From Candidatus Lloydbacteria bacterium RIFCSPLOWO2_01_FULL_50_20 (GTDB taxonomy: Bacteria > Patescibacteriota > Minisyncoccia > Phycocordibacterales > UBA6899): a stretch of DNA of 64,000 bases. Below, piece by piece: positions 30,634 through 35,454 of this stretch. Location of the stretch: NCBI GenBank assembly GCA_001821435.1, contig MHLP01000007.1:1620-65619 (forward strand). Direction: 5' to 3'. Position numbers and translations under genes: made by a program. The notes under the pieces were generated by a model that was not told the origin of the DNA, searched no databases, and saw only the letters and a program-made list of their open reading frames with translations. Within the stretch, counting starts at the first letter, position 1; every line of letters begins with the position of its first letter.

Positions 30634-31845
30634 TTAAGGCATGAGCTGTTTGACCAAATGGGCAAAAGATTCTTTGATTCGTCCGAAGATATGATCGCCG
30701 CCGACAAGCGCGCTGCGGTCGTTCGTCACCCCCCATATCGCAAGTCCGTACGCGACGAACCATGAGGTGTCTTTGATCTGTTTTTTATTTTTTGCATTTG
30801 CGTTGAAATCCAAATTAATGAACGGAACTTTCGAAGGAAGGCGCATTATGCCACGCGCAAAATCTTCGAGTGTTTCGATGCCGGATCCTCCGCCGGTCAA
30901 AATGATCCCCGCAGGCAGTAGCTCGTGTTTTCCGATCTTCTTCAGATGCGCGATGACCAGACTGAACATATCTTCGAGACGGGAGACGATGATGTCGTTC
31001 AGTTTCTTTTTTGGAAATTGCTGTCCGCCGCGTCCGAGTTTGACGAGTTCCGCTTCTTCGAGGGGGATCTTGAGGCCGAGTGCAATGTCGTTCGTGATAT
31101 CGGTCGAACCGATCGGAAAGACTTCCAGTGAGATCGGGATCCCTTCTTCATAGACGACGATGGAAAGCGTTTCCGCTCCGATATTCGCGAGCACACAGCC
31201 CGCCATCTTTTGCGCTTTCGTGAGTGCGACGAATGAAGCTGCGATAGGGGAGGCGCATGCATCGACGGGTTCGACGCCGGCTTCTTCGACGGCGCGGATC
31301 ATGTCATTCAAGTGCTGATCAAGGCACGAAACGATGAGGCATTTCGTTTCCAGCTTGAGTCCGCGCATGCCTTCGGGTCGCCCGTATACTTTTTTTCCGT
31401 CGATCGTATATTCGATCGGAATGGTATGCAGTATTTTTTTATTGGCGGGATTCGGGAGATTTTGTTCAGAAGTACGGAGGGCGCGATCGACATCATTCCC
31501 GCCGATCTCGGAATCAGCACGGGAGATGATCGCTGCCCCGGTCGTTCCTGCTCCCTCAAGACCAACGCCGCCCACCGAGAGATACGCCTCGCGAATATGC
31601 ACTCCCGCAATTTTTTCCGCTTCGTCTACCGCCGCTCGGACGCCCTTCACCGCATCGGCGATGTTGATGATATAGCCGTGTCTTAGTCCGCGCGATTCGG
31701 CTTTCCCCATGCCGATGATGCGCGGAAGCCCTGCGCCCGGCGTGTATTCCGTGATCACCACACGAACAGTGTGCGTGCCGATATCGATCCCGGTTATGAT
31801 GCGCTTGTTTGCCATAAAGGGGAACGCATGCTCCGTTCCACTCAT
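30634..31845 (-). CDS. ftsA: Cell division protein FtsA (actin-like ATPase)
   Basis: Actin-fold phosphate motifs (GIDIGTHTVRVV; DIGAETLSIVVYEEG); located directly upstream of ftsZ. Confidence 0.85.
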   Translation of the reverse strand: MSGTEHAFPFMANKRIITGIDIGTHTVRVVITEYTPGAGLPRIIGMGKAESRGLRHGYIINIADAVKGVRAAVDEAEKIAGVHIREAYLSVGGVGLEGAGTTGAAIISRADSEIGGNDVDRALRTSEQNLPNPANKKILHTIPIEYTIDGKKVYGRPEGMRGLKLETKCLIVSCLDQHLNDMIRAVEEAGVEPVDACASPIAASFVALTKAQKMAGCVLANIGAETLSIVVYEEGIPISLEVFPIGSTDITNDIALGLKIPLEEAELVKLGRGGQQFPKKKLNDIIVSRLEDMFSLVIAHLKKIGKHELLPAGIILTGGGSGIETLEDFARGIMRLPSKVPFINLDFNANAKNKKQIKDTSWFVAYGLAIWGVTNDRSALVGGDHIFGRIKESFAHLVKQLMP

Positions 31846-31860
31846 GCAACAGATCTGCCG

Positions 31861-32277
31861 TTATGGCCGGGAGCTATTTTTGATGTGAAACTTCGCGAGC
31901 AATTGTTGTTCCTGTCTCTCCATTGTACCGCCATGACGGTATCCTTTCAAATGCAAAAGCGAGTGGATAAAGAGGAGTGCGGTAAAAAAACGGAAAGATT
32001 CATTCCGCGACCGGCATTCCCGTTTTGCCTGCCGGAGATTGAGCACGATCTCCCCGCTCTGTTTCTCGAGCGGAAACGAGAGGACATTAGGAACATAGGA
32101 CTTTTTGCGATAGGTCCGGTTGAGTTTTTGGGAATAGGCATCCCCGGCAATGACCAGGGAGAGGACGTACTTCTTTCCGAGCACTCGCCCTTTCATGCGC
32201 AAAAAAGGAAGGACGGGCATCCTCCCCTTTGTGAGTCGTGTGATCGCGAATCCTGATGTCTTATCGGCGACGGCCAT
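31861..32277 (-). CDS. ybeY: rRNA maturation endoribonuclease YbeY
   Basis: HSLLHLKGYRH zinc-binding motif (HxxxHLxGYxH). Confidence 0.75.
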   Translation of the reverse strand: MAVADKTSGFAITRLTKGRMPVLPFLRMKGRVLGKKYVLSLVIAGDAYSQKLNRTYRKKSYVPNVLSFPLEKQSGEIVLNLRQAKRECRSRNESFRFFTALLFIHSLLHLKGYRHGGTMERQEQQLLAKFHIKNSSRP

Positions 32278-32518
32278 TGCTTCCGGGAACTTTTTCCACG
32301 ATCTTCCCCAGTTTCTTCAGCCGTTCATAGGCCTTGCGTTTGTCTATGGAGACCAGAGCGCGGCGCTTTGTTTTGAGTTTGGACAGTTTTCGGCTGAAAT
32401 ACCGCTCTTCTCTGACTTTCATGAGTGCCTTTGTTCCCTGAACGCGCTTCGTAAAACGGCGGATAAGCGCCGCTCCGGATTCATTCCCCTGTTTTTTCAC
32501 TTCGGCGATGATTTTCAT
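32261..32518 (-). CDS. rpsU: 30S ribosomal protein bS21
   Basis: Basic 85-aa protein with an S21-like pattern (ALIRRFTKRV ... REERYFSRKLSKLKTKRR). Confidence 0.6.
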   Translation of the reverse strand: MKIIAEVKKQGNESGAALIRRFTKRVQGTKALMKVREERYFSRKLSKLKTKRRALVSIDKRKAYERLKKLGKIVEKVPGSNGRRR

Positions 32519-32571
32519 GATGTGCGTCCAAATCTAGCACAGGGTATTCTCGATTGCAACCAAGAATATAA

Positions 32572-32597
32572 AAAACGGCCACTGTGGCCGTTATCAT
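32572..32597 (-). terminator. Rho-independent terminator on the minus strand (cggccacagtggccg plus T6) closing the upstream non-coding region
   Basis: GC hairpin followed by TTTTTT, read on the minus strand. Confidence 0.6.
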
Positions 32598-33367
32598 CGT
32601 CTTTTGGTCGGTTCCCGGCGACGAGCGTTTTGAGGGCATCACTTTCGCGCCGCCACACACCACGCCGCCGGGATTCCCGCGCACCCTGCATCGAATTAAG
32701 TAGCCCCTGCAGGGGAGAGCCATTTCGAGCAACTCCAGTGGCGGCTGTGACTATACGCGGCGGCGATTTCCGGAAAACACCGCCATTTGCCGCAATTGCG
32801 GAGTGCTCGGGTTTGCACGTGGCCACGCTGGTCCCGCCTACGCGGGGAGTATTGCGAGGCCAACGGCGCAACGGGCATCTTTACAATCGAAACGGTCTAG
32901 CCCGGTTCAACCGATCCTTTGAAAGTGTAGTAGATTCACAAAAATTGTCAAGCTTCATAAAATGGCTAAAATTAAGGAGAAAAACTTATACAAAAAATAC
33001 ATAAGGCAGTCTTGTGGACTATCATAGGACTCTCTTGTGTATTTTAGGCGGGCATACAACCGCGTGCTCTGCACGGGCCTGGAACCGCAGTTTACGCCTA
33101 CGGCTTTGCGTGGCGCAAACTCAGCAACGTCTTCGTTGCTGCCACAGCTAACCTTCGAGCTCTAGAACTACGATCAAACCGCGGACTCCTGTCCGCGGTG
33201 ATTGACTTTTCACTCGCATTTTCCTCTCAAGCGAAGGTTTTCCTCTTTTGAAAAACATTGCGGAGGCCAACGGGCCGAGCATAGGAATTCGCCAGCCCTT
33301 CGGCAGTGAGCTCAGGGCCGAACTGCAGGCGAATATCCGCGTTTTTCAAAAGAAAAAAACCAGAGCG
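32598..33367 (-). ncRNA. Candidate structured non-coding RNA locus (about 770 nt, GC-rich, no plausible ORF) between hisS and rpsU; identity undetermined
   Basis: Only Arg-rich antisense-like ORFs present; numerous GC-rich helices (tagcccctgcaggggagagc; ccgcggactcctgtccgcgg); terminated by the 32572 hairpin. Confidence 0.35.
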
Positions 33368-34759
33368 CTATTTTATGTTCTTTATATAGTCCGCGAGTTT
33401 TGCCACTTTCACCGTGTCCTGCGAGCGGGTGAGCATGTTGCGGACGATGACCGTTCCGTCGAGCGCTTCTTTTTGTCCAAAAATGATCGCATAGGGGATC
33501 TCGAGTTTCTCGGCGGTTCCCAACTGCCCCGAAAGCGAGTCTCTATTCAATGAGTGCGCGACCGGAATACGCGCGCTTCTTAATACCTCGATGATCTCGA
33601 GCGACTTCAGCTTCGCTTCAAAACCCAGCTGAATAAAATAGATCTTCGGTTTTTTGACGATGCGCGGCGTGACCGCCTTGTAGTTTTGCGACATGAGCAC
33701 GCGGTCCACTCCGATCGATGCGCCAACGGCGGGCACATCCTTCTTGCTTCCGAGACGTTTGGCAAGATAGTCATAGCGTCCTCCGCCAGCCAGCGCAAGC
33801 GGTGCGTTTGCCGCCGCTTCCCGCTCGTCTTTTGCGGTTCTCTTTCCCTTTTCTTCGACGGTCTCTTCAAGCTGCGTCGTATTTTCAGCGGGAGCATCCG
33901 GGATCTTGGCGTCGGGCACCTCGACGATCTCAAAAACGGTATGCGTATAATAATCGAGCCCGCGGACAAGATAGGGGTTAATGCGGTAATTCAGCTTGAG
34001 TGCGTCGAGGTATTCCAGTACTTCTTTGAAATGTGCTTTCGATGCGAGAGAAAGATGGGCGATCGATTGCGGAGCTTTTTCCTTATACGGCTGACATTCC
34101 GGATTCTTGCAATCAAGGAGGCGAAGCGGATTGGTTTTGATGCGCTCTCTGCAGTTCGCACAGAGATGGTTGATGTGTTTGCGGTAGTATTGGGTCAGTT
34201 CGCGGAGGTATGGCACGCGCGAATCTTTGTCGCCGATGGAATTCACGTCGATCACGATATTTTTGAGTCCAACGTCGGAGAGTATCATCGCCGTAAGGTA
34301 GATCACCATGGCGTCCGAGACCGATTTCGGCGAACCGATCATTTCGATGCCGAATTGTCTGAACTCGCGATAGCGCCCGCGCTGCGGATTATCATGCCTG
34401 AAGAACGATCCGTAATAATAGAGTTTGATCGGCTGCGGCTGTGACTGCATGCCGTGCTCAAGATACGCGCGCATGGCGGGGGCGGTTCCTTCCGGACGGA
34501 GCGCGAGTTTGTCGCCGCCTTTGGTCTTCAGCGTATACATTTCTTTTCCGACAAGATCGGTATCTTCGCTATTCGTCGAAAGAAAGACATCTTCGCGCTC
34601 AAGCATGGGAAGCTCTATCGGCTGAAAACCGTAATAGAGTGCGACTTCAGAGGCTTTTTCAAAAAATCCCTGATATTTGTGATGCTCATTTCCCACAATA
34701 TCCCGCATGCCCTTTGGCGCTGTCGGAACATCTTTACGCGCTGCCCCCTTTTTTGCCAT
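33368..34759 (-). CDS. hisS: Histidyl-tRNA synthetase
   Basis: Class II motifs including GRYREFRQFGIE and the HisRS-type N-terminus KGMRDIV. Confidence 0.85.
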   Translation of the reverse strand: MAKKGAARKDVPTAPKGMRDIVGNEHHKYQGFFEKASEVALYYGFQPIELPMLEREDVFLSTNSEDTDLVGKEMYTLKTKGGDKLALRPEGTAPAMRAYLEHGMQSQPQPIKLYYYGSFFRHDNPQRGRYREFRQFGIEMIGSPKSVSDAMVIYLTAMILSDVGLKNIVIDVNSIGDKDSRVPYLRELTQYYRKHINHLCANCRERIKTNPLRLLDCKNPECQPYKEKAPQSIAHLSLASKAHFKEVLEYLDALKLNYRINPYLVRGLDYYTHTVFEIVEVPDAKIPDAPAENTTQLEETVEEKGKRTAKDEREAAANAPLALAGGGRYDYLAKRLGSKKDVPAVGASIGVDRVLMSQNYKAVTPRIVKKPKIYFIQLGFEAKLKSLEIIEVLRSARIPVAHSLNRDSLSGQLGTAEKLEIPYAIIFGQKEALDGTVIVRNMLTRSQDTVKVAKLADYIKNIK

Positions 34760-34794
34760 AGAAATTTTTTTTTGCGCCCGATTACCATTGATAA

Positions 34795-35454
34795 TTATTC
34801 TCCGCGAGCGCTCGCTTCCGCAGGCTCTCCGGTGTCGAGATCGAATTCCGAGAGTGCGCCCGGATACAGGCCGACTTTGCTGATCGGGAACAGGCGCAAC
34901 AACGCTTTGCCATCCATCATATTTTTTGGCACCGGACCCCAGACACGGGAATCCGAGCTCTGGGCGCGGTTATCGCCCATGACAAAATATTGTCCGTCCT
35001 CAAGCGTTCGGGATAAATTTTCCTGCTTGGGACTTTTCACATAAGGCTCGGAAAGCGTAAGCGGAGCGGTATGCCCGGGGCCGGTGATCGTCACTACGCC
35101 GTCGACGATCGTTAAGGTTTCTCCCGGAAGTCCTATCACGCGCTTAATGAAATATTTCGAAGTGTCGAGAGGGTAACGCAGGATCACCACGTCGCCGCGC
35201 TGATAATTGTCCTGATATTTCGCGAGTTCGTTCACGATAAGATACTCGCCGTTGTGAAAAGTGGGATACATGGAATTTCCCGAAACAACGAAAGGCTGCG
35301 CGATGAAGGTCCGGATGGGGATGATGATGAGTGCGGCGATCAGCGCATAGCGGAGGGTTTCCCAGACCACGCTCCATATACTGCCCCCACTCATTTCTCC
35401 CCCCTGCCCTGAGCCTGTCGAAGGGTTCTTTTCTGGCTGATTTTCAGTCTCCAT
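34795..35454 (-). CDS. lepB: Signal peptidase I (S26)
   Basis: Box motifs VVSGNSMYPTF (Ser), GDVVILRYP, KRVIGLPGE, GDNRAQSSDSR. Confidence 0.85.
   Translation of the reverse strand: METENQPEKNPSTGSGQGGEMSGGSIWSVVWETLRYALIAALIIIPIRTFIAQPFVVSGNSMYPTFHNGEYLIVNELAKYQDNYQRGDVVILRYPLDTSKYFIKRVIGLPGETLTIVDGVVTITGPGHTAPLTLSEPYVKSPKQENLSRTLEDGQYFVMGDNRAQSSDSRVWGPVPKNMMDGKALLRLFPISKVGLYPGALSEFDLDTGEPAEASARGE

What the first reader, a model, noticed from the sequence alone, without database searches (positions are those of the whole stretch)
32519..33367. An 850-nt GC-rich non-coding gap between hisS and rpsU with its own terminator, a candidate large structured RNA
No credible ORF exists here. The plus-strand 284-aa ORF overlaps the region but is Arg-rich and antisense-like. 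The region is rich in perfect GC helices: tagcccctgcaggggagagc, ccgcggactcctgtccgcgg and ccgggattcccgcgcaccc. On the minus strand it ends in a classic intrinsic terminator (cggccacagtggccg plus T6) just upstream of the rpsU promoter. I could not match RNase P, tmRNA, SRP or 6S consensus by eye, so its identity is open.
Basis: partly seen in the sequence, partly recalled or inferred. Interest (0 to 1): 0.5.

Follow-up and report, generated by a model that had tools for sequence, protein, structure and literature searches.

The report
New structured RNA gene beside rpsU
The 850-base gap is not one giant RNA: half of it is a poorly conserved run of hairpins after hisS, and the other half is a roughly 350-base non-coding RNA gene with its own promoter and terminator that recurs in related Lloydbacteria (CPR bacteria) and matches no known RNA family.

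Summary
The gap (32519-33367) is real, holds no credible gene, and ends on the minus strand in a true intrinsic terminator. It is composite, not a single 850-nt RNA. In most Parcubacteria hisS and rpsU lie 17-150 nt apart, so about 800 nt here are lineage-specific.

Part A (33367 to about 32990) is a hairpin-rich, poorly conserved stretch after hisS. It ends in a long hairpin plus U-run that probably terminates hisS.

Part B (about 32917 to 32568, minus strand) is an independent RNA gene:
- It has a conserved TTGACA-17-TACACT promoter.
- It has a multi-helix core with two proposed pseudoknots.

Eight other distinct Lloydbacteria sequences carry homologues of B at the same place, 350-640 nt long. 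Conserved blocks are separated by variable insertions, helices keep pairing through compensatory changes, and there is no conserved reading frame.

Rfam 15, ARAGORN, Pfam, and phage and plasmid BLAST gave nothing. RNase P, tmRNA, SRP and 6S are not supported.

Verdict: a probable new family of structured non-coding RNA with a narrow, patchy distribution and no known function. Transcription is untested.

The parts
33236..33361 (-). 126-nt near-perfect hairpin immediately after the hisS stop codon. The outer 21-bp stem is GGUUUUUUUCUUUUGAAAAAC / GUUUUUCAAAAGAGGAAAACC and encloses a 24-nt palindrome.
   Evidence: Inverted repeats I1 and I2. The same element follows hisS in L008 and L184 with compensatory stem changes. 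Its core is 80% identical over 51 nt to a stretch inside fmt of L167.
33046..33235 (-). Run of short local hairpins, including CCGCGGACAGGAGUCCGCGG at 33199-33178. This is a poorly conserved spacer, probably a 3' UTR of hisS.
   Evidence: Fold z-score -6.3 on the minus strand and -8.1 on the plus strand. No blastn match in any relative. L184 lacks this stretch and L171 has unrelated sequence there.
32991..33045 (-). Long imperfect hairpin (23-nt arms) followed by UAUUUUUUG. Probable terminator of hisS transcription.
   Evidence: Inverted repeat I3. Equivalent long hairpins plus T-runs lie just upstream of the RNA promoter in L171 and L184. Inferred, not tested.
32957..32967 (-). Conserved AGCCAUUUUAU box upstream of the -35 hexamer. 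Possibly an UP element or a binding site.
   Evidence: Identical in the window, L171 and L184.
32924..32951 (-). Promoter of the RNA gene: TTGACA (32951-32946), a 16-nt spacer in the window, and TACACT (32929-32924).
   Evidence: Promoter scan. The same motif sits in front of every full-length family member (L171, L175, L180, L183, L184; TTGACA..TATAGT/TATACT in L005 and L092).
32568..32917 (-). The structured RNA gene, about 350 nt, from the inferred start (AAGGAUCGG...) to the end of the terminator U-run.
   Evidence: Homologues in 8 other distinct sequences. Covariance models score 141 and 89 bits here and give no convincing hit in about 1.07 Mb of other Parcubacteria loci (best stray match 15 bits, E 0.29, in L040). 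No conserved frame. The start site is inferred from the -10 hexamer.
32872..32913 (-). 5' domain with a proposed H-type pseudoknot. Ha is CGGUU (32913-32909) / GACCG (32897-32893). Hb is CGGGCU (32904-32899) / UGCCCG (32877-32872).
   Evidence: Coordinates. Ha varies on both sides at all 5 pairs (for example GCUGA/UCAGC in L175). Hb becomes CUGGC/GCCAG in L184.
32821..32861 (-). Variable hairpin V1. Its length and sequence differ in every member.
32726..32809 (-). Central domain of three nested helices. M1 is CGAGCACUCCG / UGGAGUUGCUCG. M2 is GCGGC / GCCGC. M3 is a hairpin, GGCGGUG-UUUUCCGGAAAU-CGCCGCC, with a conserved loop.
   Evidence: Present in the unconstrained MFE fold and the RNAalifold consensus. 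All 7 pairs of M3 change on both sides. Model R2.
32683..32721 (-). 3' pseudoknot. X is GCUCU / GGGGC. It is interleaved with S1, CCCUGCA (32714-32708) / UGCAGGG (32690-32684).
   Evidence: X was predicted independently by RNAalifold on the MAFFT alignment. S1 is in the MFE folds. X becomes UGUGC/GCGCA in L180 and L182, and S1 becomes CCCUGUU/AACAGGG in L171.
32605..32683 (-). Helix S3 (U-G-G-CGG / CCG-A-CCA) encloses the long helix S2 (CCCGGCGGCG 32672-32663 / CGUCGCCGGG 32623-32614), which has a variable tip.
Evidence: The inner S2 pairs and one S3 pair covary.
32570..32592 (-). Intrinsic terminator AACGGCCACAGUGGCCGUU plus U6.
   Evidence: Every family member ends in a different GC-rich hairpin plus U-run at this place.
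32531..32559 (-). rpsU promoter TTGCAA-17-TAGATT. It is not part of the RNA.
   Evidence: Conserved in all relatives, including L001, whose 65-nt gap holds little else.

Best explanation
Most of the interval (about 800 nt) is a lineage-specific insertion into the normally short hisS-rpsU spacer, and it holds two unrelated things.

(A) From 33367 to about 32990 on the minus strand lies a poorly conserved string of palindromic hairpins. It is probably transcribed as the 3' end of the hisS message and closed by a long hairpin plus U-run.

(B) From about 32917 to 32568 on the minus strand lies a stand-alone gene for a roughly 350-nt structured non-coding RNA. A near-consensus sigma-70-type promoter (TTGACA-17-TACACT) drives it. 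The transcript folds into:
- a 5' pseudoknot;
- a variable hairpin;
- a three-tier central stem with a conserved UUUCCGGAAA loop;
- a 3' pseudoknot;
- a long helix clamped by a closing stem.

An intrinsic terminator releases the transcript. rpsU is then expressed from its own promoter just downstream.

The conserved core, with expansion segments at fixed sites (members run 350-640 nt), is the pattern of an RNA whose three-dimensional fold is under selection. I infer that it acts in trans as a folded RNA, most likely as a protein-binding scaffold or a small catalytic or recognition core, rather than by antisense pairing.

Shown: non-coding nature, homologues, promoter and terminator conservation, and base-pair compensation. 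Inferred: transcription, the start site, the pseudoknots and any function.
For: The spacer is normally short and this one is an insertion.
- The hisS-rpsU gap is 17-150 nt in most of about 150 Parcubacteria loci, and 65 nt in the nearest species representative L001 (HisS 86% identical).

Part B has homologues at the same site.
- Homologues lie between hisS (where the contig reaches it) and rpsU in L171-174, L175, L180, L183, L184, L182 (partial), L005 and L092.
- blastn identity is 70-82% in blocks.
- In front of every full-length member is TTGACA, a spacer of about 17 nt, and a -10 hexamer (TAcACT or TATAGT/TATACT).
- Behind every member is a different hairpin plus U-run, then the rpsU promoter.

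The structure is supported.
- The unconstrained MFE fold of the window sequence already contains M1-M3, S1 and S2.
- RNAalifold on plain MAFFT alignments independently recovers X, S2 and S3 (6 pairs with double changes) and M1-M3.
- On a hand-curated helix alignment of 9 sequences, 96% of cells pair and 23 of 50 pairs change on both sides. None of 500 shuffles reach these values. Slid controls give 26-40% pairing and 2-4 such pairs.
- The strands sit at consistent positions in every sequence.

The models are specific.
- R1 and R2 score 52-141 bits on members. Neither gives a convincing hit in about 1.07 Mb of other Parcubacteria hisS neighbourhoods: the best stray match is 15 bits, E 0.29, in L040, and R2 finds nothing.

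It is not coding.
- tblastx matches fall in all six frames, with stop codons and frame switches.
- There are no Pfam hits and no protein homologues.
Against: - No expression data exist, so the promoter and start site are consensus-based inferences.
- Only 9 distinct sequences are known, all from one subclade. The quantitative covariation test used strands I picked by eye, which favours pairing. The automatic alignments show fewer double changes (2 of 26 pairs, 6 of 19).
- The folding energy of part B is only modestly better than shuffles (z -2.3) and is equal on both strands.
- The RNA is missing at this locus in several close relatives: L001, L003, L176-179, L181 and L188. It is therefore dispensable, relocated or mobile.
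- The spacer is an insertion hot spot that elsewhere holds toxin-antitoxin pairs, so a selfish or decaying element is not excluded.
- The proposed function has no direct support.
Confidence: 0.72

Rival explanations
1. Part B is a cis-acting leader of the rpsU-ybeY operon. In this reading it is a long 5' untranslated region whose terminator is an attenuator controlled by ribosomal protein S21 or another ligand.
For: All nine members lie directly upstream of rpsU and point the same way, even where other genes have been inserted between hisS and the RNA (L092, L180). The element ends in a terminator just before rpsU. Autoregulatory ribosomal-protein leaders are common (established knowledge).
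Against: - A separate rpsU promoter (TTGCA-17-TAGATT) lies between the terminator and rpsU. It is equally conserved in relatives that lack the element.
- Close relatives, including one whose RpsU is 93% identical to the window's, do without it.
- A length of 350-640 nt with expansion segments is far larger than known ribosomal-protein leaders.
- I found no obvious alternative pairing that would disrupt the terminator, but I did not test this systematically.
Confidence: 0.12
2. The whole gap, part B included, is a decaying remnant of inserted mobile DNA (palindromic elements or a degraded cassette) with no function of its own.
For: - The spacer is an insertion hot spot with unrelated contents in different relatives.
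- Part A is made of near-perfect palindromes that fold equally well on both strands.
- One hairpin has a relative inside the fmt gene of a distant species.
- The element has a patchy distribution.
Against: - Across species whose HisS is only about 80% identical to the window's (for example L005 and L092), the promoter hexamers, the terminator position and the helix pairing are all kept, while loop and insertion sequences have diverged freely.
- Neutral decay would not preserve pairing through double substitutions.
- There are no repeats of part B elsewhere in the window or in the loci.
Confidence: 0.08
3. Part B is a strongly diverged version of a universal RNA: RNase P RNA, tmRNA, SRP RNA or 6S RNA. 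Rfam models are known to miss some CPR RNase P RNAs at default cut-offs.
For: The size (350-640 nt), the pseudoknots and the expansion segments resemble RNase P RNA or tmRNA. Lui et al. 2021 (PMC8172020) report that 10 of 35 complete CPR genomes needed score thresholds below the noise cut-off to find RNase P RNA.
Against: - No hit to any RNase P, tmRNA, SRP or 6S model appears even at E<=10 on a 371-nt query.
- ARAGORN finds no tmRNA.
- The RNase P CR-I motif GAGGAAAGUCCGGGC has no match within 3 mismatches in the element, and no ACAGAA (CR-V) is present by inspection.
- Both pseudoknots are local, unlike the long-range P4.
- There is no tRNA-like 3' end and no tag reading frame.
- The gene is absent at this locus from close relatives.
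Confidence: 0.04
4. The gap encodes a small or unusual protein that ORF finders and databases miss.
For: Stop-free stretches of 100-185 codons exist on both strands. Gene callers annotated ORFs over the element in L180 and L183.
Against: - Those ORFs have no Pfam hit and differ in strand and frame between species.
- tblastx similarity switches frame and crosses stop codons.
- Insertions between conserved blocks are not multiples of three.
- No homologue was found among 5.8 billion proteins.
Confidence: 0.02

Closest known systems
Orphan large structured bacterial ncRNAs (OLE, ROOL, GOLLD, raiA, HEARO)
   Same: - It is a stand-alone non-coding gene several hundred nucleotides long.
- It sits in a GC-enriched, long intergenic region.
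- It has a conserved multi-helix core with pseudoknots and variable expansion segments.
- Its phylogenetic range is narrow and its function cannot be read from sequence.
   Different: - It has no sequence or structure match to any of these families (Rfam 15).
- It has a different set of helices.
- It is known so far only from a subclade of Candidatus Lloydbacteria.
- It always lies next to rpsU.
- It has no associated protein gene.
Diverged RNase P RNAs of CPR bacteria (Lui et al. 2021, PMC8172020)
   Same: Both come from CPR hosts, are of similar size, show expansion or loss of peripheral helices and escape default Rfam thresholds.
   Different: - The universal CR-I and CR-V sequences and the long-range P4 pairing are absent.
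- It is dispensable at this locus in close relatives.
Ribosomal-protein autoregulatory leaders
   Same: It lies directly upstream of, and in the same orientation as, a ribosomal protein gene, and it ends in a terminator.
   Different: - It is 5-10 times larger.
- It is separated from rpsU by an independent conserved promoter.
- It is absent from many relatives with nearly identical rpsU.
Rickettsia palindromic elements and MITE-like repeats (applies to part A only)
   Same: The 126-nt hairpin after hisS is a near-perfect palindrome. A related copy appears in frame inside a protein gene (fmt) of another species.
   Different: Only three or four copies have been seen. No copy-number evidence from a whole genome is available, and no target-site duplication was identified.

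Membership tests
RNase P RNA (bacterial type A/B) | Match to the covariance models RF00010 and RF00011 | tested here: not met
   No hit at gathering score or at E<=10 on 1301-nt and 371-nt queries, nor in the L005 and L092 homologues. Hits scoring below roughly 12 bits would not have been listed.
RNase P RNA (bacterial type A/B) | Universal CR-I (GAGGAAAGUCC) and CR-V (ACAGAA..) sequences that form the long-range P4 helix | tested here: not met
   CR-I has no match within 3 mismatches inside 32568-32917. No ACAGAA is present by inspection. The proposed pseudoknots are local.
RNase P RNA (bacterial type A/B) | Cleaves pre-tRNA 5' leaders, and no other rnpB gene is in the genome | not testable with these tools
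   The whole genome could not be scanned.
tmRNA | tRNA-like domain formed by the 5' and 3' ends, plus a tag reading frame | tested here: not met
   ARAGORN finds none in 31000-35000. There is no Rfam tmRNA hit. The 3' end is an intrinsic terminator, not a CCA-ending acceptor.
SRP RNA and 6S RNA | Match to Rfam models. For SRP: helix 8 with a GNRA loop and symmetric loop. For 6S: a long rod with a central bubble. | tested here: not met
   No hits. The fold is multi-branched, not a rod.
Known large ncRNAs (OLE, GOLLD, ROOL, HEARO, raiA and the rest of Rfam 15) | Match to the family covariance model | tested here: not met
   None of the 4227 families gives a hit above noise in the window element or in the L005 and L092 homologues.
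Ribosomal-protein leader or riboswitch (cis-regulatory) | Lies within the 5' UTR of the regulated gene, with no promoter between the element and the gene | tested here: not met
   A conserved TTGCA-17-TAGATT promoter lies between the terminator and rpsU, and it is also present in relatives that lack the element. These are consensus matches only; transcription starts were not measured.
Ribosomal-protein leader or riboswitch (cis-regulatory) | Alternative terminator and antiterminator pairing | not tested
   No systematic search for mutually exclusive structures was made.
Structured non-coding RNA gene (generic) | Conserved across species with base pairs kept through compensatory substitutions | tested here: met
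   23 of 50 pairs change on both sides and 96% of cells pair, against 26-40% in slid controls, on a hand-curated alignment. RNAalifold on MAFFT alignments gives partial independent support. The sample is small (9 sequences).
Structured non-coding RNA gene (generic) | Own promoter and terminator, and no conserved ORF | tested here: met
Structured non-coding RNA gene (generic) | A discrete transcript is detected | not testable with these tools
   No RNA-seq data were available.
MITE/REP-like repeat | Multiple dispersed copies in the genome | tested here: not met
   There is no second copy of any part of the gap in the 64-kb window and none of part B in any other locus. Only 6% of the genome was visible. 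The first hairpin of part A does recur in other species.

The most novel reading that the evidence does not exclude
Part B is the founding member of a new class of large, doubly pseudoknotted, trans-acting RNA specific to CPR bacteria. Its conserved core would carry out a catalytic or ribonucleoprotein function, with a standing comparable to OLE, ROOL or raiA. If broader searches find it at other loci, it could be a housekeeping RNA that has escaped annotation in these minimal genomes.
Probability: 0.3. Interest if true: 0.8.

Novelty: new variant of a known kind. Interest (0 to 1): 0.58.

Why it matters
CPR/Patescibacteria genomes are about 1 Mb and tightly packed, so a 350-640-nt non-coding gene with a strong promoter is costly and unlikely to be kept without a use. 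Very few lineage-specific structured RNAs are known from this huge uncultivated radiation. Annotation pipelines either leave this locus blank or place spurious ORFs on it, as in L180 and L183.

If confirmed, this would be a new RNA family with two pseudoknots and defined expansion sites. It would be a tractable target for structure determination and for identifying a protein partner or catalytic activity. It would also be a useful correction to CPR gene calls.

The result also shows that the hisS-rpsU spacer is an insertion hot spot in Parcubacteria.

Tried and rejected
- Rfam at gathering and at E<=10 on the window, on the trimmed element and on the L005 and L092 homologues gave only noise.
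- ARAGORN found nothing.
- BLAST of the gap against phage and plasmid collections gave no match.
- Pfam on all ORFs of 40 aa or more gave nothing above cut-off.
- tblastn of the proteins found in other relatives' gaps (membrane protein, others) against the window gap gave no remnant, so the gap is not a pseudogene of those.
- Exact-protein look-up of HisS failed. The RpsU look-up only returned identical copies of the same population, which are useless for covariation.
- A metagenome scan with HisS gave no relative between 84% and 100% identity.
- A protein search with the antisense ORF over part B, meant to fish out spurious ORFs from other genomes, found nothing.
- Viral-contig scans with two conserved motifs gave only chance 16-mers that the covariance model rejects. 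The hairpin motif was also absent from viral contigs.
- The plus-strand promoter-like sites at 32935-32972 are not conserved in L171 by inspection, so a divergent plus-strand transcript is unsupported.
- mafft-qinsi and mafft-xinsi were unavailable. The covariance-model realignment inherited MAFFT's errors, so I curated the helix strands by hand.
- Literature searches found no description of this RNA.

Full report
**What is at the coordinates.** The interval 32519-33367 lies between rpsU (32261-32518) and hisS (33368-34759), both on the minus strand.
- None of the ORFs in it has a Pfam match or a protein homologue.
- Only 32600-32900 is GC-rich (0.61 against about 0.50). The centre is AT-rich and carries a near-consensus minus-strand promoter, TTGACA (32951-32946) and TACACT (32929-32924).
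- Rfam 15 finds only tRNAs in the window and nothing in the gap, even at E<=10. ARAGORN finds no tmRNA.

**Origin and context.**
- HisS places the window in Candidatus Lloydbacteria (Parcubacteria, CPR).
- The exact RpsU protein is encoded on contigs of GCA_001821385.1 and on several Rifle-type metagenome contigs, all with an identical 849-nt gap. These gave no variation to work with.
- Across about 150 Parcubacteria loci hisS is followed by rpsU, usually after 17-150 nt.
- The nearest species representative, L001 (HisS 86% identical), has a 65-nt gap that contains essentially only TTGCAA-17-TAGATT. The same motif sits at 32559-32531 in the window.
- About 800 nt of the window's gap are therefore an insertion into a short ancestral spacer.
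- Other relatives hold unrelated insertions there: an RHH/RelE-like pair and a small membrane protein (L009), homologues of that membrane protein (L012, L015), and a ParE-like pair (L187). L188, with the identical RpsU, has a 52-nt gap. The spacer is an insertion hot spot.

**The gap is composite.** Look-ups through RpsU variants 88-95% identical to the window's brought in closer relatives. Alignment with L171 and L175 and blastn show that only the rpsU-proximal part is conserved. That part starts exactly at the promoter.
- Every full-length homologue has TTGACA, a spacer of about 17 nt, a -10 hexamer (TAcACT, or TATAGT/TATACT in L005 and L092), and then an AAGGAUCGG-like start (TAGAAAGG / TAGAUGG in L005 and L092).
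- Every homologue ends in a different GC-rich hairpin plus U-run, followed by the rpsU promoter.
- The homologues are L171-174, L175, L180, L183, L184, L005, L092 and the truncated L182.
- Members are 350 nt (the window, which is the shortest) to about 640 nt (L183). They have large insertions at a few fixed sites between conserved blocks.

The hisS-proximal part (33367 to about 32990) is different.
- It folds far better than shuffles on both strands (z -6.3 and -8.1), as DNA palindromes do.
- Only two pieces recur in relatives. One is the 126-nt hairpin right after the hisS stop, seen in L008 and L184 with compensatory changes. The other is a long hairpin plus U-run just before the RNA promoter, seen in L171 and L184. 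I read the second as the hisS terminator.

**Structure of the RNA (part B).** Coordinates are.
- The unconstrained fold of the window sequence already contains a nested central domain (M1 CGAGCACUCCG/UGGAGUUGCUCG, M2 GCGGC/GCCGC, M3 hairpin with loop UUUUCCGGAAAU). It also contains helix S1 (CCCUGCA/UGCAGGG) and the long helix S2 (CCCGGCGGCG/CGUCGCCGGG).
- Comparison across members adds three elements:
  - helix X (GCUCU/GGGGC), which interleaves with S1 to give an H-type pseudoknot;
  - a clamp S3 around S2;
  - a second, 5' pseudoknot (Ha CGGUU/GACCG with Hb CGGGC/GCCCG).
- Examples of compensation:
  - Ha becomes GCUGA/UCAGC in L175.
  - Hb becomes CUGGC/GCCAG in L184.
  - M3 becomes AGCGGAG/CACCGCU in L184 and GCGUGGG/CCCACGC in L180.
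  - X becomes UGUGC/GCGCA in L180 and L182.
  - S1 becomes CCCUGUU/AACAGGG in L171.
  - The inner S2 pairs differ in almost every lineage.
- RNAalifold on plain MAFFT alignments independently recovers X, S2 and S3 (6 of 19 pairs with double changes) and M1-M3.
- On a helix-only alignment that I curated by hand, 96% of cells pair and 23 of 50 pairs change on both sides. None of 500 shuffles reach these values. Sliding the partners gives 26-40% pairing and 2-4 such pairs.
- The strands sit at consistent offsets in all sequences.
- That alignment is fitted to the structure and the sample is small. I regard the fold as well supported in outline and the two pseudoknots as proposed.

**Specificity and distribution.**
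- Covariance models of the 3' domain (R1) and central domain (R2) score 52-141 bits on members.
- Neither model gives a convincing hit in about 1.07 Mb of other Parcubacteria hisS neighbourhoods. R1's best stray match is 15 bits (E 0.29, L040) and R2 finds nothing. Neither finds anything convincing in viral contigs fished with conserved motifs.
- The RNA is absent at this locus from several close relatives: L001, L003, L176-179, L181 and L188.
- I could not scan whole genomes, so I cannot say whether it has been lost or moved in those.

**Not coding, not a known RNA.**
- tblastx between members hits all six frames, crosses stop codons and switches frame.
- The ORFs that gene callers placed over it in L180 and L183 have no Pfam hit and disagree in strand.
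- A paper on complete CPR genomes reports diverged RNase P RNAs that Rfam misses at default thresholds (PMC8172020), so I took that rival seriously.
- Against it: the element has no CR-I match within 3 mismatches, no ACAGAA, no long-range P4-type pairing and no low-score Rfam hit on a 371-nt query.

**How it most likely works.**
- Shown: this is a non-coding, conserved, base-pair-compensated element bounded by a conserved promoter and a terminator.
- Inferred: it is transcribed as a discrete RNA of about 350 nt starting near 32917. It folds into the multi-domain structure above and acts in trans through that fold, as a protein-binding scaffold or a small catalytic or recognition core. A conserved core with expansion segments is typical of such RNAs.
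- The main rival is a cis-acting leader of rpsU. Its constant position and orientation favour this. The independent rpsU promoter downstream of the terminator disfavours it, since that promoter is also conserved in relatives lacking the element, and so does the element's size.
- Neutral mobile-DNA debris fits part A but not part B.

**Novelty and verdict.**
- I found no description of this RNA in Rfam 15 or in the searchable literature.
- It is best described as a candidate new family within the known kind 'orphan structured bacterial ncRNAs'. Its known range is narrow and patchy.
- Interest is moderate to good. It is a concrete, testable new RNA in a poorly explored radiation, but it has no expression data, few sequences and no functional lead.

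Noticed in passing
window 33236-33361 (minus); L184 1060-1165; L008 5393-5548; L167 5027-5077: A 126-nt near-perfect hairpin directly after the hisS stop recurs after hisS in two other Lloydbacteria, with compensatory stem changes. Its core (TATGCTCGG..GCAATGTTT) is 80% identical over 51 nt to a stretch lying in frame inside the fmt gene of a distant Parcubacterium. This could be a small mobile palindromic element like the Rickettsia palindromic elements.
   Followed up: partly
hisS-rpsU spacers of L009 5393-7367, L012 4214-5981, L015 5390-6380, L187 578-1258, L188 1035-1086: The spacer is an insertion hot spot. It holds toxin-antitoxin pairs (RHH plus RelE-like in L009, ParE-like in L187) and a family of small membrane proteins starting MF..TRI.NG (L009, L012, L015). 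Two contigs encoding the identical RpsU differ by a whole TA cassette (L187 against L188).
   Followed up: partly
L012 4222-4275 and 5827-5935: The 1.8-kb insert in L012 is bounded by inverted repeats of about 110 nt that also match the start of the L009 insert. This suggests a transposon-like cassette.
   Followed up: no
L180 1486-2411; L183 174-695: Public gene calls place ORFs of 73-173 aa with no Pfam hit on top of the RNA homologues, on different strands. They are probably spurious annotations.
   Followed up: partly
L175 1385-1500; L182 150-260: Two family members share an extra conserved domain of about 150 nt (GGGG.GCCAUCGGC.AAAGCAACG.GUGA...) between helix S3 and the terminator. The window's RNA lacks it.
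   Followed up: no
window 32957-32967 (minus): An AGCCAUUUUAU box just upstream of the -35 hexamer of the RNA promoter is identical in the window, L171 and L184. It may be an UP element or a regulator site.
   Followed up: no
L175 1527-1703; L183 760-920: In these two relatives about 150 nt of extra sequence lie between the conserved rpsU promoter motif and the rpsU start codon. Its content was not examined.
   Followed up: no
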